Below are positions 1,323 to 59,208 of a stretch of DNA of 64,000 bases, piece by piece. Numbering within the stretch: the first letter of the stretch is position 1; each line of letters opens with the position of its first letter. Under the pieces are notes generated by a model. It was not told the DNA's origin. It did not search any database and saw nothing but the letters and a program-made list of their open reading frames with translations. The stretch lies in IMG/VR virus record IMGVR_UViG_2623620552_000001, positions 18,464 through 82,463 of that record, one strand, 5' to 3'. This DNA comes from a virus. Lineage: Duplodnaviria > Caudoviricetes. The position numbers and the translations under genes were made by a program.

Positions 1323-3314
1323 CTACGCAAGCATTGACAGAAGTTCCGCTCCGCTAACGATCTCTGGTTCCGAATAGAAGGCCAGGCGAGCCCCGACACT
1401 GACATCCGCGCCCGAGAAAGCGCGATCCGAAGACGCGGACGAAAGACCGCACGGCGAACCGAGGTACGCGGGACCGCCAACAACCAGGAGCTGACCACCT
1501 GTAGCAGCCCAATATCCGTCGCAGTAGTAGGTGGTTTCACTACCGCCTACAGCCTTTGGCAGCATATCCCAATACTCTCCGAGTTCCATCTGTGTTGCGT
1601 ACTGTCCGTTTGCACTTGAAAGCACACCACTGATGTCACGTCCTTCTGCGGTATTGCTTACCACATTGCCGTCATAGACAACAGCATGCCTAACACTTCC
1701 GCTCATATAGAAGCGAATACCAGGACGGAACTCCCACAACTTGCCGAACATGTCCTCAAAGCCGAACAGCTTCGTCACATAGCGTGTAACGTTAGCTCTG
1801 TCCGTTGCTGTCACGCATCCTGTTCCATCACCAAGGCTATCTGCCATACCATGAGCTAAGTCTCTATAAGCATCCCATGACGCACTTGAGCGGGCATTGC
1901 CGTTGGAAAGGAAGCTCTCTGAGTTGAGATTGCCATAGCGTGCCTGATAGAGTGCATTGATAAGACAGTGGAACTGATAGTTAGCCAATCCAAAGTCTGC
2001 GTGAATGGCTTGTGCGTCCTGCCAGAAGGCACTCATCGTCTTAGAGTGTGAAGAGCCTACACCTGCACGGCTATGCCCTCCTGCAGACATCTGATAAGCA
2101 CCCACCCAATGTGGGGATGCAAATACATGTCCTCCGTTAATAGGTGTCATTCCACCGAATTGTAAGGTAGTTCCATTGCCTAAGTAATGACAGTCTGGAA
2201 CATGTATCATACACTCAGTGGCGGCTTTGGCTGCATCTGTCACAGTGCTTCCATCTGCGAACAAACTCCAATTGGAAGGATTTAGTTTGGCGGCATATAC
2301 CTTGCCATCCTTTACGAGGAATAGATAGCCACCCATACGGTTGATATACTGTGCTGCTGCTCCCTGATTGTTTACGGTGAATGTAGGTGATGAACTTCCC
2401 TCAAGCGTGAAATTAGATACAATGGAATCTATTGCATAGGACATGTTAGTCTGTATTTCCTTCACTGATTGCTGTAGGTTATCTATCTGCTCTTCATAAT
2501 CTCCCTCTGGTGTCTGCCAGGTTCCGTCTTCGCGCAAATACTTACTTGTACCACTGCCAGTACCAAGAGCAGACTTAACTTCAGCGGCTGTTGGTGCAAT
2601 ATGCTTCTGAGCACCTGCCTCTATACCGCCTAACTTATTCTTCTCATCTGTTGTATAGTCATTGGTTGACAGTCCCTTACCTGTTACCTTATCAACCTTT
2701 TTGGCAAGTTCGGTATATGCACCACCAGTCGTGAACTTGGTAGTACCTCCTGATACTGGTGTTGCACTATCTCCCGTGTTGACAACATCCCCCAATCCTA
2801 CCTGTACCTTTGTGACACCATGCGGATTGCTTGTGTTGTTGATGTGGTCGTTGACCACCTTTCCATCGGCAGCAGTACCTGTTGTGGTGCCAATCGCAAG
2901 GTCGCCTTTAATCTGAGTATATGCAGAACCACTCCATCTCCAAGAGGTATTGGTTGACTTGTCAACGTAAATCTTTCCTCCCTCACCAGTTGCGGGGAAT
3001 GCTGACTTGGTGTCATACTCCAATACATCATCCACGTAAGACGGAAGTTGCGAAGAAGGCACTTTTCCTGCGGAGTCAAGCGTTGCCACACCAGAAGCAG
3101 CACCCATCTCACTTCTCTTAACCTGTGCATCGTTTGTTACACTGCCAAGACCGACATCGGACTTGCTGACGGTAACATTGCCGCTCAGAGCATGACCATT
3201 GACGGTCGTTGTCTTGTCTACCTTCGGGTCTATCTTGTCCGTCTTGAGCTTCTGCAAAGCCGCTTTGAGGTCTTGGACGTTGATAGCCTCGGTTTCATGT
3301 CCTGTTGTTGCCAT
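1323..3314 (-). CDS. DGR target protein: fibre/adhesin with C-terminal variable (CLec-type) domain
   Basis: 663 aa with phage fibre repeats (GLSTNDYT, NPHGVTKVQVGL), EDMFGKLWEF, and a C-terminal VR ending GARLAF. Confidence 0.9.
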   Translation of the reverse strand: MATTGHETEAINVQDLKAALQKLKTDKIDPKVDKTTTVNGHALSGNVTVSKSDVGLGSVTNDAQVKRSEMGAASGVATLDSAGKVPSSQLPSYVDDVLEYDTKSAFPATGEGGKIYVDKSTNTSWRWSGSAYTQIKGDLAIGTTTGTAADGKVVNDHINNTSNPHGVTKVQVGLGDVVNTGDSATPVSGGTTKFTTGGAYTELAKKVDKVTGKGLSTNDYTTDEKNKLGGIEAGAQKHIAPTAAEVKSALGTGSGTSKYLREDGTWQTPEGDYEEQIDNLQQSVKEIQTNMSYAIDSIVSNFTLEGSSSPTFTVNNQGAAAQYINRMGGYLFLVKDGKVYAAKLNPSNWSLFADGSTVTDAAKAATECMIHVPDCHYLGNGTTLQFGGMTPINGGHVFASPHWVGAYQMSAGGHSRAGVGSSHSKTMSAFWQDAQAIHADFGLANYQFHCLINALYQARYGNLNSESFLSNGNARSSASWDAYRDLAHGMADSLGDGTGCVTATDRANVTRYVTKLFGFEDMFGKLWEFRPGIRFYMSGSVRHAVVYDGNVVSNTAEGRDISGVLSSANGQYATQMELGEYWDMLPKAVGGSETTYYCDGYWAATGGQLLVVGGPAYLGSPCGLSSASSDRAFSGADVSVGARLAFYSEPEIVSGAELLSMLA
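1377..1492 (-). repeat. DGR variable repeat (VR)
   Basis: Adenine-specific divergence from TR 893-1008; encodes LLVVGGPAYLGSPCGLSSASSDRAFSGADVSVGARLAF. Confidence 0.96.
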
Positions 3315-3330
3315 AATATATATCGTTTTT

Positions 3331-3465
3331 TCAAGTTAATTCATTTATGATTGATTCGCAAGTAGCCACGGAGGCATACTCGGTAAGTCCCGGTATCGCA
3401 GGCTTCAGCTTGTCATCCCATAGGGTCTTGAAGTCTTCGAGAGCCATATAATTTTCGCCTGTCAT
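3331..3465 (-). CDS. 44-aa mini protein made of fibre N- and C-terminal helix modules
   Basis: MTGENYMALEDFKTLWDDKLKPAIPGLTEYASVATCESIINELT. The N half matches the N-terminus of 3552-4427; the C half matches the C-terminus of 5014-6516. Confidence 0.8.
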   Translation of the reverse strand: MTGENYMALEDFKTLWDDKLKPAIPGLTEYASVATCESIINELT

Positions 3466-3498
3466 AATCGTTTCTGTTTATTCTTCCTTTATCATGTC

Positions 3499-3540
3499 AA
3501 AAAAGAATCTCGGGGAGAGGAACGCGTCCCCTCCCTGAGA
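3499..3540 (-). terminator. Rho-independent terminator-like hairpin
   Basis: - strand tctcagggagggga-cgcgt-tcctctccccgaga followed by ttctttttt. Confidence 0.7.
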
Positions 3541-3551
3541 AAAAGAGAGCC

Positions 3552-4427
3552 TTAGACTACGAAAGCAGCCAGTTCCTGTGCGGTAACGCGGTTGGGCACC
3601 TCGATGTCAACAGCCTTGTTAGCATCGGGAGTCAGAGCCGTGCCGTTCACCTTCACGCTCTGGATGGCGGTGTCGGCCTTACCACCCTGTGCAGCGGTAG
3701 CGAAGTCAGAAGCCTTCGCGCCTGAGTCTGTCAGGTTGCCGTTGGCATCCAGTCCGGCGAAGTTGCCGTTAGTAGCAGAAGCCACCTTGTCGGCCTTTCC
3801 GCTGATGTCCTGGTGCTGCTGAATAGCAGTATCAGCCAGTGCGAGGGAAGCCTGCACTTCTGCCGTCATGTCGGTAGAAGGAATACCGCCGCTTGGCTTG
3901 TCGTACTTAGCACCCCAGGCAGCCTTGTCGCTGGTGGTCACGTGGATGTCGCTGTTGCCAGTGTGAGAGGCAATGGCAGCTGCGTTGGCAGCACCCTTGG
4001 AACCTTCGTAGGCAGTGCCTGCGGTCTCACCGAGAGCGATGCTTGCGGAAATCTCCGCATAGGCAGTGCCACCCCAACGATAAGTCTTGTTGTCATCGAG
4101 CGTGACATAGATCTTGCCACCCTCACCCTCTGCGGGCAGTGCTGCGAAGTTGGCTGCCTCGATAACGTCGTCAACGAATGAAGGCAGCTGGCTTGATGGA
4201 ACCTTACCGGTAGCATCCAAGGTGGCAACACCACTGTTGGCGCCCTTCTCAGTAGCAGCGATGAACGTGCTCTGGGCGATGTTAGTACCATCAGCCAGAA
4301 CGAGGTTCTTGGCATTGGTGTCAGTACCTGCCAACATCGCAATGAAACCGGCTACGATGTAAGGCTTGAGTTTGCTGGTCCAGAGTTCCTGGACGTCGGC
4401 TAACGCCATGTAATTCTCTTTAGTCAT
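3552..4427 (-). CDS. Phage fibre-like structural protein
   Basis: 291 aa. Shares the GVATLD..GKVPSSQLPS.VDDV domain with the DGR target; also DISGKADKV and GNFAGLDANGNL fibre repeats. Confidence 0.75.
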   Translation of the reverse strand: MTKENYMALADVQELWTSKLKPYIVAGFIAMLAGTDTNAKNLVLADGTNIAQSTFIAATEKGANSGVATLDATGKVPSSQLPSFVDDVIEAANFAALPAEGEGGKIYVTLDDNKTYRWGGTAYAEISASIALGETAGTAYEGSKGAANAAAIASHTGNSDIHVTTSDKAAWGAKYDKPSGGIPSTDMTAEVQASLALADTAIQQHQDISGKADKVASATNGNFAGLDANGNLTDSGAKASDFATAAQGGKADTAIQSVKVNGTALTPDANKAVDIEVPNRVTAQELAAFVV

Positions 4428-51958: not shown

Positions 51959-52573
51959 TTATACTTCTGTTACGTTTCCTACTTGGTGCATAAACTCTTC
52001 TCTTACAATCGGGTCGTCACGGAAAGCGCCTTCAATGACCGTTGTTGTCATTATGCCTTTCTTTCTTGCACCGCGACTTTCTTTACACATATGACGACCC
52101 TTCATTACAAGAGCAATTCCGAGAGGCTCAGGTGCGCCGTCTTTCATCAGGGCTTCTTTGAGCATTGCCACGATGTCGTGAGAAAGACGCTCTTGTACTT
52201 GTAACTTTGCTGAACAGTAGTCTACCACACGTCCAATCTTGGAGATTCCGAGGATTCTTCCTTCTGGTGCTGGTATGTAAGCAAACCAGTACTTTCCGAA
52301 GAAGTCCTTCATATGATGCTCACACTGAGAATAGAAATCCCCTTGGTCGATAACCATATTGTCGTAAGTGATTCCGTCCGTTCCGTTAGGGAATGTAGTA
52401 ATCTTCGGTGCTTTTGTTTGGTCGTAGCCACGATAGATTTCTTTGAACATCTTACTAATTCTGTGGGGTGTTCCCTTCAATCCTTCGCGGTCCGGATCTT
52501 CACCTATCTCTATAAGAAGCTGTCGTACCAACTTCTCTATAACCAAATCTTTTTCGCTTCTTTCCTTTTCCAT
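51959..52573 (-). CDS. folE: GTP cyclohydrolase I
   Basis: GEDPDREGL..TP.R, CEHH, GISKI.R, QVQERL, HMC..SRG. Confidence 0.95.
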   Translation of the reverse strand: MEKERSEKDLVIEKLVRQLLIEIGEDPDREGLKGTPHRISKMFKEIYRGYDQTKAPKITTFPNGTDGITYDNMVIDQGDFYSQCEHHMKDFFGKYWFAYIPAPEGRILGISKIGRVVDYCSAKLQVQERLSHDIVAMLKEALMKDGAPEPLGIALVMKGRHMCKESRGARKKGIMTTTVIEGAFRDDPIVREEFMHQVGNVTEV

Positions 52574-52577
52574 AATC

Positions 52578-53177
52578 TTATCTTACTTTAAGTATTTTCT
52601 GTTGTTGAAGAGAAAGTTTCCATTTAGGATGGTTCTTAACCCACTCTACACATTTCTTAATGATATAATCGTTCATCTCCTTGTCGCCAGTGTCGCAAGG
52701 TTGGATATAGTACTCTTTGGCACTTATTCCAAAAGCGTCAGGCTCTTGGACGGCATCATAGACAACTTTTACTTCGTCAGCCTTTGTCAGCCACACGCTA
52801 CCTCCGCTCACATATGCTTTCTTTGGCGATGCCGTAATCCAATTGATGTTTCTCGGAACTTCTCTTGTGGCATTGGTTTCCATTGCCACATAGTATCCGT
52901 TAGCGTGTAGCATATCAACAAAATCTTCCGTTACTTGCAACGTTGGCTCTCCGCCTGTAAGTACGACAAAATTGCATTGACTATACTCTAAGAGTTCTTT
53001 GAGTATGTCTTTTGCTTTCATCTTCTTGTAAGAAGCAAAGTCGGTATCACAGAAAGGGCATTTTAGATTACACCCTGAGAAACGAATAAAAATTGCTGCT
53101 CTTCCGGCCCATCTTCCTTCTCCTTGGAGAGAATAGAAGATTTCATTCACCATGTATTCCTTTTCTATCATATTCAT
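52578..53177 (-). CDS. queE: 7-carboxy-7-deazaguanine synthase
   Basis: EIFYSLQGEG, FIRFSGCNLKCPFCDT, LTGGEP, ETN. Confidence 0.95.
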   Translation of the reverse strand: MNMIEKEYMVNEIFYSLQGEGRWAGRAAIFIRFSGCNLKCPFCDTDFASYKKMKAKDILKELLEYSQCNFVVLTGGEPTLQVTEDFVDMLHANGYYVAMETNATREVPRNINWITASPKKAYVSGGSVWLTKADEVKVVYDAVQEPDAFGISAKEYYIQPCDTGDKEMNDYIIKKCVEWVKNHPKWKLSLQQQKILKVR

Positions 53178-53180
53178 ATC

Positions 53181-53555
53181 TTAGAGAAGTTTATAGATGT
53201 CAAGATGAAAGTCGAGGTCGGTGGCAACGGCAATGTTACCCTCGCTCTCCTGCACCATTGCTTTGTAGCATTCGGGGATTTGCTGAGTGCACCATTTAGC
53301 GATATTCTCTGCCGTAGGGTTAAAGTCGAGGATTTCGTTAAGATTGCCGTGGTCTAAGCGTCCGTGAATCTTCTCTTTGATATGCTTAAAATCACATACC
53401 ATTCCGTCCTTGTTCAACTCTTTTGCAGCACAATACAATGTAATTATCCAGTTGTGTCCGTGAAGGTTCTGACACTTACTTTCATAGGAGAGGTTGAGAC
53501 GATGTGCGCCTGCTATCTCCATACGCTTCGATACGCAATAAATAAAGTTTTCCAT
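53181..53555 (-). CDS. queD: 6-carboxytetrahydropterin synthase
   Basis: AHRL, C.NLHGHNW, LDH..LN, PTAENIA, ES. Confidence 0.95.
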   Translation of the reverse strand: MENFIYCVSKRMEIAGAHRLNLSYESKCQNLHGHNWIITLYCAAKELNKDGMVCDFKHIKEKIHGRLDHGNLNEILDFNPTAENIAKWCTQQIPECYKAMVQESEGNIAVATDLDFHLDIYKLL

Positions 53556-53572
53556 AATTCTTCTTAATTAAT

Positions 53573-53603
53573 TTTGTTATCTGAATCTTTCTTATTAATT
53601 TTG
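53573..53603 (+). promoter_or_regulatory. Consensus Bacteroidetes promoter TTTG-N19-TAATTTTG, antisense to the que operon
   Basis: TTTG at 53573-53576 and TAATTTTG at 53596-53603. Confidence 0.7.
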
Positions 53604-53609
53604 CCCTTT

Positions 53610-53727
53610 GAAAATGGGTATCGGTTGAAACGAAGGCATCTTACGTCCTTTACACGTATTTTCGAGGTAGGCGATGCCGCCTATGACCCTCTTTAAGCCA
53701 GCATAGGGGTGAAAGCCCCCTTTTTTT
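53610..53727 (+). ncRNA. Candidate structured small RNA convergent with the 188-aa nuclease gene
   Basis: Outer GGGT..GG/CC..ACCC stem, GGCATC/GATGCC stem, inner tacgt-cctttac-acgta hairpin, and terminator gggg-tgaaag-cccc plus T-tract. Confidence 0.62.
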
Positions 53728-54292
53728 ATTTGTCGAACTGATGCTCATAGACTTCGCCTTTAGAGTTTACAACTAACACAACTTTTGCCTTGAATTCCCA
53801 TTTCGGTGTAATGCTCTGATAATGCTTCATGCCGTCTTCTATATCCTTTCTATGAAAGAGGTTGTGCCTGTCATATATGAGAGCGATTTCCGAATGCTTT
53901 TTGTTTGCGTGTACGATAGCATTCTTTACTGTCACCTTTGCTTCGTCCTTGATACTCTTAGGCGTTGTCTGCTCATATGTTATCTGACTGACCGTACCTT
54001 CTGAGAATTTGCCTTTTTGCATGTTAGTTGCGTATATCTCGTAGCCCGGTCCTTCGGGGGTCAATACGACGTTGAATCCAGCGTCAGAAAGAGCTTTCGC
54101 AGCTTCCATCTCCTCTATGTGGTATTCGTGGCCTGTCATATAGGCTACATAAGCACCACTTACGGCAGAGATTGACGAATTGGATGGGTCATACTGACCT
54201 GTCGCCATACGAGCGTTGAAATCCGCAAGGTTAGCAGCCTTTCCTGCCGCAGAGGGCTGAACTATCCGAGTGCTACCGAATGCCTTTGCCAT
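53726..54292 (-). CDS. MAKxxGxT-leader protein with CdiA-like PD-(D/E)xK nuclease-type domain
   Basis: E.EAAKAL...G..VVL.PE...K.SEG.V....YEQTTP...AI.HA..K pattern; catalytic residues are variant. Confidence 0.6.
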   Translation of the reverse strand: MAKAFGSTRIVQPSAAGKAANLADFNARMATGQYDPSNSSISAVSGAYVAYMTGHEYHIEEMEAAKALSDAGFNVVLTPEGPGYEIYATNMQKGKFSEGTVSQITYEQTTPKSIKDEAKVTVKNAIVHANKKHSEIALIYDRHNLFHRKDIEDGMKHYQSITPKWEFKAKVVLVVNSKGEVYEHQFDK

Positions 54293-54299
54293 ACCTCAG

Positions 54300-54953
54300 T
54301 TACTCCTCGTACTCTGTCGGGTCGTCGATACCTGCATCCCTTAGAGCCTCTTTGCGCTCTACACAAGTGCCACATTTTCCGCAATGTTTCTCTCCACCTT
54401 TGTAGCAAGACCATGTTTCGGCATAATTGAGCCCGATTGCTTTGCCTCTCTTGGCGATGTCTGTCTTTGATATATTAGTATAGGGAGCGAAGATTTCAAC
54501 GCCCTCATACGTGCCTTTTTTCATTGCATCGGACATTGCATCGACGAACTCCTTTCGGCAGTCGGGGTAGATTGCGTGGTCACCCGAATGGTTTGCTATC
54601 ATTACTCGGTGCAGATTGTTTGATTCTGCTAACCCGCAGGCAATAGCAAGCATAATGCCGTTACGGAAAGGAACAACTGTTGACTTCATATTCTCGTCGG
54701 CATAATGCCCCTCGGGAATAGCGTCCGCACCTTCAAGGAGAGAGGATTTGAAGTATTGGTGCATAAACTCCAGAGGAATGATAAGGTGCTTGATACCTAA
54801 TCTTTCGCAGTGCAGTTTTGCAAAACCAATCTCTTTCTCCGCATGGTTGCTACCGTAGTTAAAAGTAACCGCCATAGCGATTTCGTCTTTAAATTCGTTC
54901 AGGAGAGTTATTGAATCCATACCTCCAGAAACAACAATCAGAGCGTCTTTCAT
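54300..54953 (-). CDS. queC: 7-cyano-7-deazaguanine synthase
   Basis: SGGMDS, VPFRN, YPDCR, TWSCY, CGKCGTC. Confidence 0.96.
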   Translation of the reverse strand: MKDALIVVSGGMDSITLLNEFKDEIAMAVTFNYGSNHAEKEIGFAKLHCERLGIKHLIIPLEFMHQYFKSSLLEGADAIPEGHYADENMKSTVVPFRNGIMLAIACGLAESNNLHRVMIANHSGDHAIYPDCRKEFVDAMSDAMKKGTYEGVEIFAPYTNISKTDIAKRGKAIGLNYAETWSCYKGGEKHCGKCGTCVERKEALRDAGIDDPTEYEE

Positions 54954-54959
54954 TTTCTT

Positions 54960-55433
54960 TTACTCATTACGGAATACTGCTGCCATACGCTGTGTTGCAA
55001 GCGCTTGATACTTCTCATCGCCTACATAGTTAGCGAAAGGATAGATAGAGATACCACCTCTTGGGTTGAAGATGCCGATTACCTCCAGATACTTCGGCTC
55101 CATCAGCTTAACAAGGTCTTTCATAATCATATTGACACAATCCTCATGGAAATCTCCGTGATTACGGAATGAGAAGAGATAGAGTTTGAGTGACTTACTC
55201 TCAACCATCTTCTCACGGGGAATGTAGTTGATGATAATCTTTGCGAAGTCGGGCTGATGTGTCTTAGGGCACAGGCTTGTAAACTCAGGACAGTTGAACG
55301 TCACCACATAGTCATTGTCGGGGTGCTTGTTGATGAACGTCTCCAGTACCTCGGGTGCATAGTCTGTTGGGTACTTCGTGTGCTGATTGCCTAACAGGGA
55401 AACATTTCCTAATTCGTTTTCTTTTCTACTCAT
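54960..55433 (-). CDS. queF: preQ0 reductase (unimodular QueF)
   Basis: EFTSLCP.T.QPDFA, QueF signature [17 protein letters not shown]. Confidence 0.95.
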
Positions 55434-55447
55434 AATCTTCTATATAT

Positions 55448-56194
55448 TTAAATGGTTGGTAAATTCTTTATTGCGTAATCTTGATAGAGTCGCCATTGCT
55501 GCAAGTTATACTTTTCGATGATAGCACCATTAGCTTTGTGGCCTGCGGGACGAGTAACCATCTTCATCACCTTTTTCTCTTTGTCAAAGACACACATAGA
55601 GCCGTAACGTTTTCCCATAGACCATGTGCTGCTATCCACACTGTCGAAATGGAACTTTGGCAGTAGGGAGGTCTTTGTGAAGCCCAACCCGTGTATTTTA
55701 CAATTATGCTGATGGGCGAGTTTAATCATCTTTGGCGCATACTTTTCTGTTACCTTAGTTGATAATCCTTCGGTAAGAAAGAATCCAAGACAGATACGGG
55801 GGTAATCTTTGCAATCTCGCACGAAACTCTCCGTGCCCCTTATAGTATGCCATACAGGGATAGACTGCCAACCTACGAGGTTTTCCAGTTTGTCACGGAT
55901 GCGACGAGTCTGCTCTACTCCTTCTATCTGGTCCACGTCTAACTCTACATAGTCCTTTATCTTATAGTCACGAATGAATGCAGCATAGTTTCTTATATAC
56001 TCGTCCATGTTGACATACTTACCCGAATTAATAAAGGTAAAGATTCCGCTATCAAGTAGAAAGTTGCGCATATTCGGAATCTCCGCAACGAGTTTCGGCA
56101 GGCTCTGACAATAGTAGTAAGACGAAAGCACATCGGCACCTCGCAGACAGTCATACGGCTGTATCAATGATGTTATGGCGAGATATACTATCAT
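55448..56194 (-). CDS. TGT-fold/DpdA-like base-exchange enzyme
   Basis: FLLDSGIFT, ELD, PVWH, IHGLG, FDSVDSSTW; located in the preQ1 cluster. Confidence 0.72.
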   Translation of the reverse strand: MIVYLAITSLIQPYDCLRGADVLSSYYYCQSLPKLVAEIPNMRNFLLDSGIFTFINSGKYVNMDEYIRNYAAFIRDYKIKDYVELDVDQIEGVEQTRRIRDKLENLVGWQSIPVWHTIRGTESFVRDCKDYPRICLGFFLTEGLSTKVTEKYAPKMIKLAHQHNCKIHGLGFTKTSLLPKFHFDSVDSSTWSMGKRYGSMCVFDKEKKVMKMVTRPAGHKANGAIIEKYNLQQWRLYQDYAIKNLPTI

Positions 56195-56195
56195 C

Positions 56196-56822
56196 TTACT
56201 TCTTTATTGTGCATCCTTCCCACTCTTCAAGCGTCACTTTCAGTGCCTCTTTGATGTCATCTACCTTGTCGCCCATTTCGTTAGGAACTTCGATAGTGAT
56301 TGTGATAGGCTTCTCTTTCTGCGTTGCTTCGTGCTCCTCATACAATCCCGACAGGTCCATATCTTCCTCGTCCGAGGTAAGGAACGAAACATCCATACCC
56401 CAATCCTCTAAGTCCGAAACATCCCAATCGTCGTTGGCAAGTGCATCCCAATCGGTGTTACCGAAAGCAATGTTATCCTTGATGACAAACTCTTTCAGTT
56501 TCTCTACGGGCGTTTCTTTCTTGAAGATATAGCAAGGGAACTCGGTTATGCCGACCTCACGACCTGCAAGGAAACGCATATTGCCGCCGATGATAATGTA
56601 GTGTCCGTTATCAAGCGGATAGACCTTCAAGGGGTTGGCTTCAAGGAACTCGGGCGATTGCTCCAGAGAAAGTTTGAGTTTAGCAAACCTCTCGTCCTTG
56701 ATATAACGAGGGTTCTTTGGAAGGCCTTCAAGCTGTCCGTCATTTTGTTCGATTAAGGATGCGGAAAGGACGTGAGTATAGTCCAATTTCTGCGCTTCTG
56801 CGATGTCGTTTTTCTTTGCCAT
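56196..56822 (-). CDS. ParB N-terminal-like domain protein
   Basis: KNPR.I....F..L..S, IIGGNMR, IKDN..FG..DW..L; late-type promoter (-7 box 56849-56857, 9-mer 56901-56909). Confidence 0.82.
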   Translation of the reverse strand: MAKKNDIAEAQKLDYTHVLSASLIEQNDGQLEGLPKNPRYIKDERFAKLKLSLEQSPEFLEANPLKVYPLDNGHYIIIGGNMRFLAGREVGITEFPCYIFKKETPVEKLKEFVIKDNIAFGNTDWDALANDDWDVSDLEDWGMDVSFLTSDEEDMDLSGLYEEHEATQKEKPITITIEVPNEMGDKVDDIKEALKVTLEEWEGCTIKK

Positions 56823-56928
56823 ATCTTTGCTGTTTTATTCAATTTTATGCAAAGATACGGGTATTATATATAGTTTTACGGATTTTAAGGTGTTAGCGTG
56901 TAAACAAATAGGGTTTGCAAGGCTTTAA

Positions 56929-56990
56929 ACTTGTTTATTGTCATCTACCACACTTCTGTCTGCGCTTTTTTCTTTTTCTCTACCTTTGCA
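56929..56990 (+). promoter_or_regulatory. Putative late promoter: ACTTGTTTA-N43-TACCTTTGC
   Basis: 9-mer at 56929-56937, -7 box at 56981-56989. Confidence 0.7.
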
Positions 56991-57002
56991 AGAAAATAGA
57001 AT

Positions 57003-57590
57003 ATGGCAAAAGGAAGTGGAAATACAAGAAGTAGTAATGCTTCTTTATTGAAAGTAAGTCGTAGTACGGCAGGAACGGTGAAATCTGTTACTGTGTATTC
57101 TAAGAACTATGCCTTCATGCAAAATGGCAGATTGGCGAATTCTGCTACAAAGCGATTGGAAAAGATTATTGAAGAAAAGAAAGAAAATGGCTTTAGTAAA
57201 GATACAGCTCCTTTTAAGTTTGGAACATTATCTCCTGTATTAGCAGAAAAGTTTGAAGATATGACAGGAATTCATATAGTAAATAGAGACGCTTACATAG
57301 GACAGAAGTCAATGTTTCATCACCGAACAGGAGATAAAGAAGAAAAGGGGAAAGTTGTTCCTTTAAGTGAGATAGCAAAGATGCCGAAGAAGATAGGAGG
57401 TATGGATATCTATGAACATACTGGCGCTATCATTTTCACAGATTATAAAAATATGTTTGTTCTAAAACCAAACGATAGAGTAACATTAGCAAATGGAAAG
57501 ACTATCGTAACCAATCATGTAAGTAGTTCCGTTGTTACAGATAAGAAGATGTTTGGTATTGAACATGGTTACAAAAGAATAAAAATATAA
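57003..57590 (+). CDS. MAKGSG-leader protein with possible BECR/PBECR-like ribonuclease domain
   Basis: Begins MAKGSGNTRSSNAS; C-terminal half has a S..HH...K...GK...L.EI..MP..I pattern followed by a beta meander. The fold call is tentative. Confidence 0.55.
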   Translation: MAKGSGNTRSSNASLLKVSRSTAGTVKSVTVYSKNYAFMQNGRLANSATKRLEKIIEEKKENGFSKDTAPFKFGTLSPVLAEKFEDMTGIHIVNRDAYIGQKSMFHHRTGDKEEKGKVVPLSEIAKMPKKIGGMDIYEHTGAIIFTDYKNMFVLKPNDRVTLANGKTIVTNHVSSSVVTDKKMFGIEHGYKRIKI

Positions 57591-57678
57591 AGATAGTGTG
57601 ACGAGGGAATCGGACCCTTCCTTCCGCAGAACGTCTGGTTTGTTCCACATATACCAGCATCTATCACACTATCTTTCT
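57589..57678 (-). ncRNA. Candidate tRNA-like small RNA convergent with the 195-aa gene
   Basis: Perfect 13-bp closing stem (57589-57601 with 57664-57676), CUGGU/ACCAG arm, T-arm-like AGGG-UCCGAUU-CCCU; TAAATTTGCAC promoter at 57681-57691 on the - strand. Confidence 0.62.
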
Positions 57679-57790
57679 GGGTGCAAATTTAATAATATTT
57701 TATCAAAGAATATTAGTTTCAATGTTAGAATTATATTTTTTTAAATTGTTTTAAGACGATATACCGCGATATTAAGACGCATTAAGACAA

Positions 57791-58072
57791 TTATTCAGAA
57801 TGTCCATCTTCTATAATTACCTGTGGTTCAGATACTTGTGCCGTTAAACACTCTACTTCATGCCACTTCTCCAGAGGGTAATAATCCGATGTAACGATGG
57901 CATTTTTAGCATCTACATCTACCCAAGAGCCTTCTGGGGTACGACTATCTATCATCCAATCAAATCTCTTGTCATGGGCAAAGACATAGAATGCTTCTTC
58001 TTTTGTCGAGGCTGCAACCAGAATGAGCCCTCCGCTATAACTGCCCTGTCTTTTACATGCAAATACTTTCAT
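57791..58072 (-). CDS. Hypothetical protein
   Basis: 93 aa; YSGGLILVAA....EA motif. Confidence 0.7.
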   Translation of the reverse strand: MKVFACKRQGSYSGGLILVAASTKEEAFYVFAHDKRFDWMIDSRTPEGSWVDVDAKNAIVTSDYYPLEKWHEVECLTAQVSEPQVIIEDGHSE

Positions 58073-59208
58073 ACTACTTTCTTTAATTTGTTACGTTTCT
58101 TTATCTCTTTCATATTTCTCTGTACCAGTTCCACTATCTGCTTATGATAAGGAGTTTCCTTGTTTTGCACGCCTCGGCTCTGAACCACTTTGTAATTAGT
58201 CAGATTCACCTCTACTGTTTCCACTCTCTTGCCGTCAATCTTAGCAGAAAGGATAAGGGAGTTGGGCTTATCATAGTAACCGCCGACACAGTGGCACATA
58301 TGAGCCCCTTCCTCTGCGATACCCATCGCCGTAGGGATAGCTTGTATGACAATGTTATCACATTGTAGTATCATATCAAGGAACTGTTTGCGCTGTTCTC
58401 GGAAGATAGGTTCGTAGGCTTCAATCTTCTCTTTCTCTCTTTCAAGGAAACGTTTCAGGTTTACTTTTGTCGTCCAGTGCAAATGTGCTTCCGAAAGGTA
58501 TTCGGGGCAGATATAGTGCGGATTTCTTGTGTCTAATCCGAGATAATCCAAATCATTTATCATATCTATCCAATCCGACACCTCTTTTTTATCTTCCCAA
58601 TGATAGCCGTGACGGAGAGCGACACGAATAGAGTTCCAGATAGTCTCCGTTAGCTTTTCTTCATGGTAGGCGAAATACCTAAAGAGTAAGTGCTGATGAA
58701 CTTTAAGGAGTGTTTCCATTCGGTTATTCTTTAACAAAGCGAGCGCGAATTTATAAGGACTTACGCCGTGCGTAGTGGTTTTCATTCCTCGCTGTTTCAA
58801 TGCAGGCAGTAATGAACGAACCTTTGCTCTACTCCATCCTATCCTATCCATACCTCCGAGATAAGAGTATCTATAGTGTGCTTCTCTACGGAACCAATCT
58901 TTGATAGTCATTTCAGAATCTCTCTTCCATCTATCAACGCCCATAAAACGCATCTTCGCCATTGCAATAATGCACTCTTCATTGAGCCATACCTGCGCAA
59001 ACTCAAATAGCGTTCTCGGACGTTTGTAGTAATAGCGAATAACCTGCCACTCTTTGCAACGTTCCATTATAAGGTAATAGCATAGGCCTTTCCTTTGATA
59101 GATACGCTTATAATCTTTATCTATCCATTCAATATCTTTTGGACGTATTTCTTTGAGGGTAGCGGATAATTCTACTACTCTACGTTCTTCTGCGTTTCTT
59201 GGTTTCAT
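58069..59208 (-). CDS. PcfJ-like protein
   Basis: EG..M.HCV..Y, LILSA..DG.RVETVEV, VVQSRG. Confidence 0.88.
   Translation of the reverse strand: MKPRNAEERRVVELSATLKEIRPKDIEWIDKDYKRIYQRKGLCYYLIMERCKEWQVIRYYYKRPRTLFEFAQVWLNEECIIAMAKMRFMGVDRWKRDSEMTIKDWFRREAHYRYSYLGGMDRIGWSRAKVRSLLPALKQRGMKTTTHGVSPYKFALALLKNNRMETLLKVHQHLLFRYFAYHEEKLTETIWNSIRVALRHGYHWEDKKEVSDWIDMINDLDYLGLDTRNPHYICPEYLSEAHLHWTTKVNLKRFLEREKEKIEAYEPIFREQRKQFLDMILQCDNIVIQAIPTAMGIAEEGAHMCHCVGGYYDKPNSLILSAKIDGKRVETVEVNLTNYKVVQSRGVQNKETPYHKQIVELVQRNMKEIKKRNKLKKVV

What the first reader, a model, noticed from the sequence alone, without database searches (positions are those of the whole stretch)
57003..57691. Putative RNase gene faced by its own tRNA-like RNA: a candidate RNA-antitoxin or decoy system
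Seen: the stop codon of the 195-aa MAKGSG protein runs directly into an 88-nt element. The element is closed by a perfect 13-bp stem and contains a CUGGU/ACCAG arm and a T-arm-like hairpin (AGGG-UCCGAUU-CCCU) next to the 3' strand of the closing stem. A - strand TAAATTTGCAC box sits just before it, so it appears to be transcribed on its own, convergently. Established: BECR-fold toxins such as colicin D and colicin E5 cut tRNA, and type III toxin-antitoxin systems use RNA antitoxins. Inference: the protein is a tRNase-like effector with no adjacent protein immunity gene, and the RNA is a tRNA mimic that neutralises it.
Basis: partly seen in the sequence, partly recalled or inferred. Interest (0 to 1): 0.85.

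Follow-up and report, generated by a model that had tools for sequence, protein, structure and literature searches.

The report
Phage RNase-like gene with tRNA-shaped RNA partner
A phage gene for a predicted RNA-cutting effector is always followed, on the opposite strand, by its own small gene for a tRNA-shaped RNA that lacks an anticodon loop. The two travel together as one cassette, which suggests an RNA that binds or disarms the protein.

Summary

- **The element.** It spans window 57589-57676 on the - strand. It has a 13-14 bp closing stem, a D-like arm, a mini-hairpin and a T-arm. A TAnnTTTG box lies 7 nt upstream.
- **Known RNA families.** ARAGORN and Rfam 15 do not recognise it.
- **The protein.** The 195-aa protein hits no Pfam model. 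Its predicted fold matches MuF-C/PBECR-type domains of phage head-morphogenesis and polyvalent proteins. Distant homologues are fused to Phage_Mu_F.
- **Linkage.** All 37 loci found with an intact domain carry a convergent tRNA-like RNA just 3' of the gene. About 10 RNA sequence types occur, most 88-90 nt. In two loci only part of the RNA is visible, because the locus ends there.
- **Covariation.** It is strong: 14 of 19 pairs are compensatory.
- **Controls.** Sister phages with the same MuF but an LPD3 or other C-terminal domain lack this RNA (0 of 22). Their homology with the tRNA-RNA phages breaks exactly around "domain + RNA".

Best reading (confidence about 0.45): a toxin-immunity-like cassette in which an anticodon-less tRNA mimic binds or neutralises the RNase-like domain. 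RNase activity, transcription and binding are all untested.

The parts
56981..56988 (+). TAnnTTTG-type -7 promoter-like box (TACCTTTG) 14 nt before the start codon of the effector gene
   Evidence: Read. The motif name (Bacteroidetes -7 element) is recalled. Its function was not tested.
57003..57590 (+). 195-aa solo effector gene. It has an N-terminal MAKGSGxTR motif and a disordered linker (residues 1-27). An alpha/beta region and a C-terminal helix plus four antiparallel strands follow. The fold is MuF-C/PBECR-like and is a predicted RNase.
   Evidence: ORF. 16 homologues were found, with invariant Y98, H106, H107, G110, K112, K117, D135, D147, N150, N157, H172 and S174-176. AF2 model: pLDDT 83. 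The ESM Atlas gives TM 0.62-0.72 to C-terminal parts of Mu_F proteins, and one row was named MuF_C. BFVD Foldseek gives 4 hits at E<=1e-3. Pfam: no hit.
57578..57680 (-). Predicted small RNA gene: a tRNA-like, anticodon-less RNA. The core is 57589-57676 (88 nt). The ends are inferred from the promoter box and the U-run.
   Evidence: Conserved next to homologues. Covariation. Single copy in its own genome.
57684..57691 (-). -7 promoter-like box TAAATTTG of the RNA gene
   Evidence: A TAnnTTTG box lies within 40 nt upstream of the closing stem in 23 of 24 flank variants. The background rate is 0.017 per 40 nt.
57663..57676 (-). 5' strand of the acceptor-like closing stem (14 bp including one U.G pair)
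57635..57657 (-). D-like arm: a 5-bp stem (CUGGU/ACCAG) with a 13-nt loop ending GGAACAA
   Evidence: 3 of its 5 pairs show compensatory changes.
57622..57631 (-). Mini-hairpin in place of the anticodon arm: 3 bp capped by a UGCG tetraloop. This is the most variable part of the RNA.
   Evidence: In relatives it is 2-6 bp with GNRA/UNCG or other short loops.
57604..57618 (-). T-arm: a 4-bp stem with the 7-nt loop UCCGAUU. Relatives have UUCGAAU or UUCGAUU.
57589..57602 (-). 3' strand of the closing stem. It overlaps the stop codon of the effector gene.
57570..57588 (-). U-rich tract after the closing stem, which gives a terminator-like 3' end to the RNA. It is encoded inside the last Lys/Ile codons of the effector gene.
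   Evidence: the 'dn' column. The simple terminator scan did not call it.

Best explanation
The locus is a two-gene cassette.

**Gene 1** encodes a solo version of a phage MuF-C/PBECR-type domain. This is a predicted metal-independent RNase. In related phages it is fused to the head protein MuF, and so is probably carried in the virion and delivered into the next cell.

**Gene 2** lies on the opposite strand and has its own promoter. It makes an RNA of about 88 nt that keeps the acceptor/T-arm stack and the D-loop/T-loop elbow of a tRNA. Two things differ from a tRNA. The anticodon loop is replaced by a short capped hairpin. The acceptor end is sealed in a 10-17 bp duplex that doubles as the RNA's terminator.

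**Proposed mechanism (inferred).** The RNA binds the domain as an uncleavable tRNA look-alike and keeps it inactive. This would protect the producing or lysogenic cell, and perhaps cells superinfected by related phages. The RNA would thus fill the slot that a protein immunity gene fills in other MuF polymorphic-toxin loci.

**Shown here:** the RNA's conservation, covariation, strand, promoter box, strict linkage to the domain, and exchange of the cassette as a unit.

**Inferred:** RNase activity, transcription, binding and neutralisation.
For: **1. Linkage.** The RNA lies just 3' of the gene and convergent to it in 37 of 37 loci with an intact domain.
- The loci are the window, L002-L006, L276/L277, L279, L280-L306 and L329.
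- L290 and L298 show only the 3' part of the RNA, because the locus ends there.
- The linkage spans solo and MuF-fused forms, protein identity down to about 20-26%, and at least four different gene neighbourhoods.

**2. Structure under selection.**
- On the five window-family RNAs, 94.7% of cells pair and 14 of 19 pairs carry changes on both sides. 0 of 500 shuffles reach this, and slid controls pair at 36-58%.
- 19 distinct RNAs all have closing stems of 11-17 bp. Total lengths are 82-101 nt, mostly 88-90.

**3. Strand.**
- Closing stems contain 29 G.U pairs against 239 Watson-Crick pairs.
- The strand opposite the gene folds better in 19 of 20 RNAs, by a mean of 4.9 kcal/mol.
- 23 of 24 flank variants have the TAnnTTTG box, ending 1-14 nt (mostly 5-8) before the stem.

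**4. Cassette behaviour.**
- L304 and L309 are 90-96% identical on both sides. They are unrelated over L304 3203-3754, which is exactly the C-terminal domain plus the RNA.
- L304 and L287 share essentially only 3226-3796, which is domain + RNA + promoter.
- MuF proteins with LPD3 or CdiA_C-like C-termini have no tRNA-like RNA: 0 of 22, against 12 of 12 in a positive subset.

**5. Protein.**
- The fold resembles MuF_C/PBECR clusters.
- Phage_Mu_F is fused N-terminally in distant homologues.
- The family conserves a His before the core helix and a Ser/Thr, plus a His in the window's own subfamily, in the last strand. Section 19 of PMC5512222 (read) and passages of the 2026 BECR preprint give this configuration for PBECR and colicin-like RNases.
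- 2 of 75 family members hit PBECR3 weakly, best E 0.0027.

**6. Precedent for the slot.** MuF toxins and MuF-linked BECR-Tox3 are reported with protein immunity genes downstream. Here no ORF fills that slot.

**7. Truncated forms.** Truncated forms of the protein recur in the close family (P0022, P0031, P0095). This would fit a costly gene.
Against: - **No Pfam PBECR or MuF_C model is reached.** 0 of 16 close members hit one, and only 2 of 75 hit PBECR3 weakly. 'RNase' therefore rests on likeness to predicted models and on motifs.
- **No expression data.**
- **The second His is not general.** H172 in the last strand is not conserved in the wider family.
- **L258 keeps the RNA without an intact protein.** There the protein has lost its core through a 279-nt in-frame deletion. 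The RNA, its promoter box and three of its helices remain intact. The RNA may therefore have a role of its own, or the deletion may be recent.
- **Adjacency alone explains co-transfer.** Co-transfer of domain and RNA would also follow from their being neighbours.
- **An antisense effect is unavoidable.** The RNA is complementary to the 3' end or intergenic part of the effector (late-operon) transcript, so it will pair with that transcript if both are made.
- **The loci are not independent.** Many come from near-identical phages, leaving about 10 RNA sequence types.
- **Coverage is limited.** Homologues from other assemblies (P0002-P0016) could not be inspected. Exceptions without an RNA cannot be excluded.
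Confidence: 0.45

Rival explanations
1. **RNP cargo or partner.** The domain binds, and perhaps processes, its tRNA-like RNA. The complex is the functional unit. It might be packaged with MuF and injected, with the RNA acting in the next cell. It could act there as a decoy for tRNA-targeting host defences or as a cofactor. The RNA is not an inhibitor in this reading.
For: - The linkage and cassette evidence is the same as for the best explanation.
- In section 19 of PMC5512222, the authors predict an RNA-binding role for the inactive MuF-C domain of phage Mu.
- The RNA survives intact in L258 although the protein's core is deleted.
- The solo forms carry a conserved N-terminal MAKxSGxTR motif that could be a virion-targeting signal.
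Against: - The conserved His and Ser/Thr argue for catalysis rather than binding alone.
- No evidence was found that these virions contain RNA.
- An own promoter reading against the late operon fits expression independent of virion assembly.
Confidence: 0.2
2. **Cis-antisense regulator, like type I toxin-antitoxin pairs whose 3' ends overlap.** The - strand RNA pairs with the 3' end or intergenic part of the effector mRNA and lowers its stability or read-through. The tRNA-like shape would serve only RNA stability.
For: - The arrangement is convergent, and the RNA overlaps the stop codon and 3' flank.
- In MuF loci the next gene lies on the + strand, so late mRNA must cross the element.
- The + strand of the element also folds well.
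- Other C-terminal domains also have a - strand hairpin unit at the same place behind the same promoter box.
Against: - Antisense action needs no particular shape. Yet about 10 sequence types that share little sequence all keep a four-way junction, a tRNA T-loop consensus, GG in the D-like loop and a length of about 88-90 nt.
- In L276 the RNA lies about 40 nt beyond the stop codon and does not overlap the ORF.
- Type I toxins are small hydrophobic peptides (recalled), not 195-aa soluble domains.
Confidence: 0.15
3. **Only a transcription terminator or intergenic structural element** between converging genes, or a decayed tRNA gene or attachment-site remnant.
For: - The closing stem plus U-run looks like a terminator.
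- In the window, - strand genes (57791-59208) point towards it.
- ARAGORN and the Rfam tRNA model reject it as a tRNA.
Against: - In the 28 MuF loci it sits inside a + strand gene row, with a - strand promoter box right before it. A - strand terminator has no purpose there unless that promoter fires.
- The three internal arms covary and are conserved.
- Its presence tracks one protein domain (0 of 22 against 37 of 37).
- The simple terminator scan finds none on either strand.
Confidence: 0.05

Closest known systems
MuF polymorphic toxins and PBECR-MuF/portal fusions of phages. Sources: Jamet et al. 2017, PMC5576092 (passages seen). Iyer et al. 2017, PMC5512222 (section 19 read). 2026 BECR preprint 10.64898/2026.08.28.747851 (passages seen).
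   Same: The C-terminal effector domain is variable and is swapped between otherwise similar MuF proteins. It sits among virion genes, and solo versions exist in phages. The fold and motifs are predicted-RNase type. A cognate partner gene lies directly downstream inside the swapped cassette.
   Different: The downstream partner here is an RNA gene on the opposite strand, not a protein immunity gene. The domain is not covered by the Pfam PBECR1-5/MuF_C models. The window's copy is solo and is not next to MuF. No Phage_Mu_F match was found in its genome.
Type III toxin-antitoxin systems (ToxIN, CptIN, TenpIN). Only search listings and abstract starts were seen. Details are recalled.
   Same: A protein (endo)RNase is paired with a non-coding RNA proposed to neutralise it by direct binding. 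These systems are also associated with phage-bacterium conflict.
   Different: Type III antitoxins are tandem repeats upstream of the toxin on the same strand, and the toxin processes them. Here the RNA is a single copy, downstream and convergent, with its own promoter. It is tRNA-shaped, and no repeats are present. The toxin fold also differs.
Colicin D and its immunity protein ImmD, which is said to mimic the tRNA substrate (recalled, not read here)
   Same: A BECR-fold tRNase is blocked by a molecule that imitates tRNA.
   Different: There the mimic is a protein. Here it would be an RNA. The target of the present protein is unknown.
Bacterial Y RNAs (YrlA) with Ro60/Rsr. Source: PMC4201824, listing and abstract start only. 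Details are recalled.
   Same: A small non-coding RNA with a tRNA-like T-arm/D-arm module is encoded next to its protein partner, sometimes in phages.
   Different: No Rfam Y RNA match was found. In YrlA the RNA ends emerge from the Ro-binding stem, not from an acceptor-like stem next to the T-arm (recalled). The partner protein is unrelated.
tRNA, and non-canonical tRNAs with long acceptor stems. Source: PMC5389517, listing and abstract start only.
   Same: Cloverleaf-like four-way junction. T-loop consensus U-U-C-R-A with a G-C pair closing the T-stem. GG in the D-like loop. A 5-nt variable region (AUAUC) in the MuF-linked types.
   Different: There is no 7-nt anticodon loop, and the closing stem is 10-17 bp instead of 7-9. 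No encoded or exposed NCCA end is present. ARAGORN and Rfam RF00005 reject it.

Membership tests
BECR-fold RNase, phage PBECR/MuF-C clade | [quoted passage not shown] | tested here: met
   In the AF2 models, helix 121-133 is followed by strands 135-139, 142-146, 150-161 and 167-177. pLDDT is 83 for the full model and 84 for the domain-only model. The definition comes from PMC5512222 section 19.
BECR-fold RNase, phage PBECR/MuF-C clade | Conserved His in or before the N-terminal helix and Ser/Thr (or His) in the last strand | tested here: met
   H106/H107, H172 and S174-176 are invariant in 16 close homologues. In the wider family the His is nearly invariant and a Thr/Ser sits in the ITA/VTA motif of the last strand, while H172 is lost. 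That these residues map onto the true active site is inferred.
BECR-fold RNase, phage PBECR/MuF-C clade | Match to a curated PBECR/MuF_C profile | tested here: not met
   Pfam: 0 families for the window protein and for 16 of 16 close homologues at E<=1. 2 of 75 family members hit PBECR3, best E 0.0027.
BECR-fold RNase, phage PBECR/MuF-C clade | Structural likeness to family members | tested here: inconclusive
   Likeness holds for predicted models. ESM Atlas gives TM 0.62-0.72 to the C-termini of Mu_F proteins, with one row named MuF_C. BFVD gives E 8e-6 to 7e-4, including a 'Phage MuF C-terminal domain-containing protein'. Likeness does not hold for solved BECR RNases.
BECR-fold RNase, phage PBECR/MuF-C clade | Occurrence as a C-terminal fusion to MuF or portal, and as solo genes among virion genes | tested here: met
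   Phage_Mu_F lies N-terminal of the domain in P0109, P0136 and P0141, in L279 and in 28 viral loci. Solo copies lie next to a 507-aa ORF that looks like a portal protein by eye only; it was not scanned.
BECR-fold RNase, phage PBECR/MuF-C clade | Endoribonuclease activity | not testable with these tools
   Needs an enzyme assay.
Type III toxin-antitoxin system | Antitoxin RNA made of tandem direct repeats, upstream of and co-oriented with the toxin gene | tested here: not met
   The element is single-copy, downstream and convergent. No tandem repeat family was found in 56800-57900.
Type III toxin-antitoxin system | RNA binds and inhibits the toxin protein | not testable with these tools
   The complex predictor offered takes no RNA.
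Type I toxin-antitoxin system | Small hydrophobic toxin peptide, and an antisense RNA acting on its mRNA | tested here: not met
   The protein has 195 aa and is predicted globular. The RNA overlaps only the stop codon and 3' flank. Antisense action itself was not tested.
tRNA | Recognised by tRNA models: 7-bp acceptor, 7-nt anticodon loop | tested here: not met
   ARAGORN found 0 genes in the window and none at the element in 7 loci. Rfam RF00005 gives no match at E<=10 or E<=1.
tRNA | T-loop consensus with a G-C closing pair, and GG in the D-loop (elbow) | tested here: met
   The T-loops are UCCGAUU, UUCGAAU, UUCGAUU, UUCAAAU, CUCGAAU, UUCGACC and UUCGAGU, each closed by G-C in all 19 distinct RNAs tabulated. 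GG is present in every D-like loop. The tertiary contact between the loops is inferred.
Bacterial Y RNA (YrlA) / tmRNA | Match to the family model, and a neighbouring Ro60 gene | tested here: not met
   No Rfam match in the window at gathering scores, nor at E<=10 around the element. ARAGORN finds no tmRNA. Of the neighbours scanned, two hit Pfam families (ParB_N weakly, PcfJ) and neither is a Ro60 family; the 93-aa neighbour matched nothing.
MuF polymorphic toxin system | N-terminal MuF domain, a variable C-terminal toxin, and a cognate immunity gene directly downstream | tested here: inconclusive
   Relatives meet the first two features. The window protein is solo. The downstream partner is an RNA rather than a protein, and immunity was not tested.

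The most novel reading that the evidence does not exclude
Bacteroidales phages may use RNA instead of protein as the immunity half of polymorphic effector cassettes.

- Each MuF-linked or solo effector domain would carry its own convergent small RNA with a constitutive promoter. For the PBECR-like RNase domain, that RNA is an anticodon-less tRNA mimic with a sealed acceptor end.
- The LPD3 domains have other hairpin RNAs at the same place.
- A second MAK-motif effector in this window shows a convergent promoter-plus-terminator unit. Two chromosomal PBECR3 genes show a convergent promoter box with a U-rich 3' end.
- The mimic may also ride into the virion with the effector.
Probability: 0.3. 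Interest if true: 0.9.

Novelty: new variant of a known kind. Interest (0 to 1): 0.8.

Why it matters
If the RNA neutralises or partners the domain, three things would follow.
- It would be the first RNA 'immunity' factor for a phage-delivered polymorphic effector.
- It would be a new class of RNA antitoxin that works by tRNA mimicry.
- It would give the still uncharacterised PBECR/MuF-C domains a concrete RNA ligand, pointing to tRNA as their likely target.

The RNA class is about 88-90 nt and its architecture is sharply conserved. It is absent from Rfam 15, and I found it in no paper searched. The supplementary RNA lists of PMC10690425 could not be opened and may contain it.

The cassette is small and easy to test. 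One can express the protein with and without the RNA, swap RNAs between cassette types, and break the elbow.

Tried and rejected
- **tRNA, tmRNA or a known RNA family.** Rejected.
- **RNA sequencing evidence.** No RNA holder was listed for window 56900-57800.
- **GenBank phage records.** No DNA or protein match for the window locus, two MuF cassettes or a distant homologue.
- **Loose RNA patterns on viral contigs.** Model R1 then found only loci already known. A tighter pattern added L258.
- **Model R1 on the distant RNA in L276.** It scored only 10.7 bits, E 0.35, though at the right place. My motif detector missed L276 because its T-loop is 8 nt long.
- **Alignment A4.** It was too diverse for the search for related loci (error). 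The smaller A5 was used instead.
- **A single-protein scan with the L279 domain.** It found nothing.
- **The 188-aa ORF at 53726-54292 as a paralogue.** Rejected, apart from the shared N-terminal motif (BLASTP E 0.45). It is also not like the CdiA_C-like domain of L316.
- **One alignment of all RNA types for a formal pair count.** MAFFT put the closing strands out of register between types. Pair statistics are therefore given for the window family only. My own helix table covers the rest.
- **Own-genome searches.** One copy of the RNA and no Phage_Mu_F.
- **Earlier notes of this scan.** None for this genome or protein. One note on a portal-PBECR fusion elsewhere.
Full report
**What is at the site.** The window is G000:C24:18464-82463. 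ORF 57003-57590 (+) encodes a 195-aa protein that starts MAKGSG. Its stop codon lies inside a perfect 13-nt inverted repeat, 57589-57601 / 57664-57676. A U.G pair extends this to 14 bp.

Read on the - strand, the 88 nt fold into four parts (-31.6 kcal/mol, z -3.57, 0 of 200 shuffles as good):
- a closing stem;
- a 5-bp arm with a 13-nt loop ending GGAACAA;
- a 3-bp hairpin with a UGCG loop;
- a 4-bp arm with the loop UCCGAUU, next to the 3' strand of the closing stem.

A TAAATTTG box sits on the - strand at 57691-57684, 7 nt before the first paired base. A U-rich run follows the stem, inside the last codons of the ORF. ARAGORN finds no tRNA or tmRNA in the window. Rfam 15 has no match around the element at E<=10, and none in the whole window at gathering scores.

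**The protein.** Pfam gives nothing for it or for its 15 close homologues. PHROGs gives only weak hits to families of unknown function, best E 0.016. The word-index search found 16 proteins including the query, all 176-208 aa. One is named as coming from a Bacteroidales MAG. Invariant residues are Y98, H106, H107, G110, K112, K117, D135, D147, N150, N157, H172 and S174-176.

AlphaFold2 (pLDDT 83, pTM 0.74) gives a disordered N-terminus (residues 1-27), an alpha/beta part, and a C-terminal helix followed by four antiparallel strands.
- Against predicted models the picture is clear. The ESM Atlas finds TM 0.62-0.72 to the C-terminal parts of 'phage head morphogenesis' proteins. These come from clusters carrying Phage_Mu_F with PBECR2, PBECR3, MuF_C or LPD3, and in one row the aligned part is named MuF_C.
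- BFVD gives four hits at E<=1e-3. They include a 'Phage MuF C-terminal domain-containing protein' and a large protein annotated 'Nuclease'; polyvalent-protein entries follow just below that cut-off.

A profile search of 1.84 billion representatives finds 137 clusters at E<=1e-3. Eleven long proteins carry the match at their C-terminus. Of the ten I scanned, three have Phage_Mu_F above its cut-off and one below it. Across the wider family a His in a 'hxHAxR..K' motif and a Thr/Ser in the last strand are kept. Iyer et al. give this His plus Ser/Thr configuration for PBECR RNases (PMC5512222 section 19). A 2026 preprint describes it for colicin-like BECR proteins (passages). Two of 75 family members touch PBECR3 weakly. 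I therefore call the protein a solo MuF-C/PBECR-like domain and a predicted RNase. Membership rests on fold likeness to predicted models, motifs and architecture. It does not rest on a curated profile or a solved structure.

**The RNA recurs with the protein.**
- Five loci with close homologues all carry the element directly after the stop codon on the opposite strand: L002 and L003 (viral), L004 (metagenome), L005 and L006 (genomes).
- The closing-stem sequences are entirely different. In L004 the T-arm has the canonical loop UUCGAAU.
- On the five distinct RNAs, 94.7% of cells pair and 14 of 19 pairs have changes on both sides. 0 of 500 shuffles reach the observed values, and slid controls pair at 36-58%.
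- A covariance model (R1) and three pattern scans of viral contigs added one more locus, L258. There the RNA is intact but the protein has lost 93 codons in frame.
- A distant solo homologue, L276/L277, has a tRNA-like RNA about 40 nt past its stop codon. It shares little beyond GGAAC and the T-loop.
- A MuF-fused homologue in another genome of the same order has one directly after the stop (G355, L279).
- A scan with the MuF-fused group returned 51 viral loci. The 28 with the domain all have the RNA, although L290 and L298 are cut by the locus end.

In total, 37 of 37 loci with an intact domain carry the RNA. They fall into about 10 sequence types. My detector tabulated 33 of the 34 loci given to it and missed L276. 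It found 19 distinct RNAs, with closing stems of 11-17 bp and lengths of 82-101 nt, mostly 88-90. Many loci come from near-identical phages, so they are not independent.

**Architecture across types.**
- Closing stem, then a 3-5-nt linker (AUG or AGAYR).
- D-like arm of 3-5 bp with GG in the loop.
- A hairpin in the anticodon-arm position. It is 2-6 bp, often with one mismatch, and is capped by GAAA, GCAA, UUCG, UGCG or other short loops.
- A short variable stretch (AUAUC in the MuF-linked types).
- T-arm whose loop fits U-U-C-R-A-N-N and is closed by G-C.
- The 3' strand of the closing stem follows, at once or after 1-3 nt.
- A U-run follows the closing stem.

So the acceptor/T stack and the elbow of a tRNA are kept. 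The anticodon loop and a free NCCA end are absent. I note, as inference, that these two parts are where known tRNases cut (recalled).

**Which strand.** Closing stems hold 29 G.U pairs against 239 Watson-Crick pairs. The strand opposite the gene folds better in 19 of 20 RNAs, by a mean of 4.9 kcal/mol; L002 is the exception. A TAnnTTTG box lies within 40 nt upstream in 23 of 24 flank variants, ending 1-14 nt (mostly 5-8) before the stem. Background is 0.017 per 40 nt. L286 is the exception, with a box about 65 nt away. That TAnnTTTG is the Bacteroidetes -7 promoter element is recalled knowledge. Transcription itself is not shown, and no RNA sequencing run was listed.

**Cassette behaviour.** The other 23 loci encode the same MuF N-terminal part with different C-termini. 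One of them, L319, is cut by the end of its locus. Among the rest there are two LPD3 variants (E 1.7e-17 and 9.4e-14), a weak CdiA_C-like domain, and one with an intein-like insert.
- None of the 22 usable ones has the tRNA-like RNA, against 12 of 12 positives. The detector's background is 26 hits in 4.96 Mb.
- They do have other - strand hairpins with U-runs at the same place, behind the same promoter box.
- L304 (tRNA-like type) and L309 (LPD3 type) are 90-96% identical on both sides and unrelated over L304 3203-3754. That stretch is exactly the C-terminal domain plus the transcribed RNA.
- L304 and L287 have different MuF backbones and share essentially only 3226-3796, which is domain + RNA + promoter.

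This is how toxin-immunity cassettes behave in polymorphic toxin loci, where MuF toxins are reported to have protein immunity genes (passages). Here no ORF fills that slot.

**Interpretation.** I consider it well supported that the RNA is a real gene on the - strand (about 0.9). I also consider it well supported that the RNA is functionally tied to this domain (about 0.85). That the domain is an RNase is plausible (about 0.55).

The best mechanism is that the RNA binds the domain as an uncleavable tRNA look-alike and keeps it inactive (overall confidence about 0.45). It would do so in the producing or lysogenic cell, from a promoter independent of the late operon. The rivals are:
- the RNP itself is the functional or packaged unit (0.2);
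- the RNA acts as a cis-antisense regulator (0.15);
- the element is a plain terminator or a relic (0.05).

Several results cut against my reading. There is no match to solved BECR RNases. There is no curated-profile match. The RNA in L258 stays intact beside a gutted protein gene. Adjacency alone makes co-transfer likely.

**Comparison with known systems.** The locus works most like a type III toxin-antitoxin pair or a MuF toxin-immunity pair, but it is a member of neither.
- The RNA is a single copy, downstream and convergent, and it is tRNA-shaped rather than a repeat array.
- The partner is RNA rather than protein.
- It resembles YrlA/Y RNAs in pairing a tRNA-like module with a protein, but matches no Rfam model.

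I found no description of such an RNA in five literature searches. The supplementary lists of candidate phage RNAs in PMC10690425 could not be opened.

**Verdict.** This is a new variant of known kinds: an RNA antitoxin or polymorphic-toxin immunity. It is well defined and easy to test. Interest 0.8.

Noticed in passing
window 53569-54292 (ORF 53726-54292 on the - strand; + strand boxes at 53569-53576 and 53596-53603; hairpin 53706-53720 followed by a U-run): A second effector-like ORF of 188 aa starts MAKAFGSTR and hits phrog_36422 but no Pfam family. Facing it is a + strand TAATTTTG box and a terminator-like hairpin whose U-run overlaps the ORF's stop codon. This is the same layout as the main finding. 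A 42%-identical homologue (L332) also has a convergent TATCTTTG box and a terminator hairpin. Neither RNA folds better than shuffles (z -0.35 and -1.5), and they are not tRNA-like.
   Followed up: partly
window 57003-57029 and 54266-54292; proteins P0002-P0108: An N-terminal motif MAKxSGxTR heads the solo forms of this family, including distant ones, and also the unrelated 188-aa neighbour. The MuF-fused forms lack it. The pattern MAK[SGT][SY]G[GN][TVI]R matched 145 stretches in viral contigs, of which only 2 were relatives of the query. My own rough chance estimate is about 10. It may be a virion-targeting or processing signal.
   Followed up: partly
L307-L328 (for example L308 3589-3660 and L317 3583-3655, - strand): MuF proteins with LPD3 C-termini carry other - strand RNAs of 70-80 nt at the same place, behind the same promoter box. 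Each is a long bent hairpin followed by a U-run. The L317 type ends in a 7-nt loop, UUGUAGU, on a stem of about 6 bp, which has the format of an anticodon loop.
   Followed up: partly
L333 (G477:C1, gene about 1501-1851) and L334 (G412:C45): Two chromosomal solo PBECR3 genes lie in other Bacteroidota genomes, between what look like housekeeping genes. Each has a convergent TAnnTTTG box followed by about 70-95 nt with a U-rich end. The two stretches share an ACGUUUYGGACGU hairpin. The folds are not better than shuffles (z -1.0 and 0.0).
   Followed up: partly
window 51959-56822: The neighbouring - strand genes look like a 7-deazaguanine DNA-modification set. They comprise a DpdA/TGT-like gene (phrog_887, E 1e-43), QueC-, QueF-, QueD-, QueE- and FolE-like ORFs identified by eye, and a ParB-like nuclease. 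PcfJ follows at 58069-59208.
   Followed up: no
L258 534-806; proteins P0022, P0031, P0095: Internally deleted or truncated versions of the effector recur in the L004-like lineage. In L258 the RNA's anticodon-arm hairpin has lost its pairing while the other helices are intact.
   Followed up: partly
L006 3891-3975: A genuine tRNA-Leu (CAG) gene lies about 340 nt from the tRNA-like element in this Bacteroidales MAG contig.
   Followed up: no
L330 about 2501-3268: One MuF gene seems to be interrupted by an intein-like (Hint-type) insert after the conserved NGWNC motif. This was judged by eye from the translation only.
   Followed up: no
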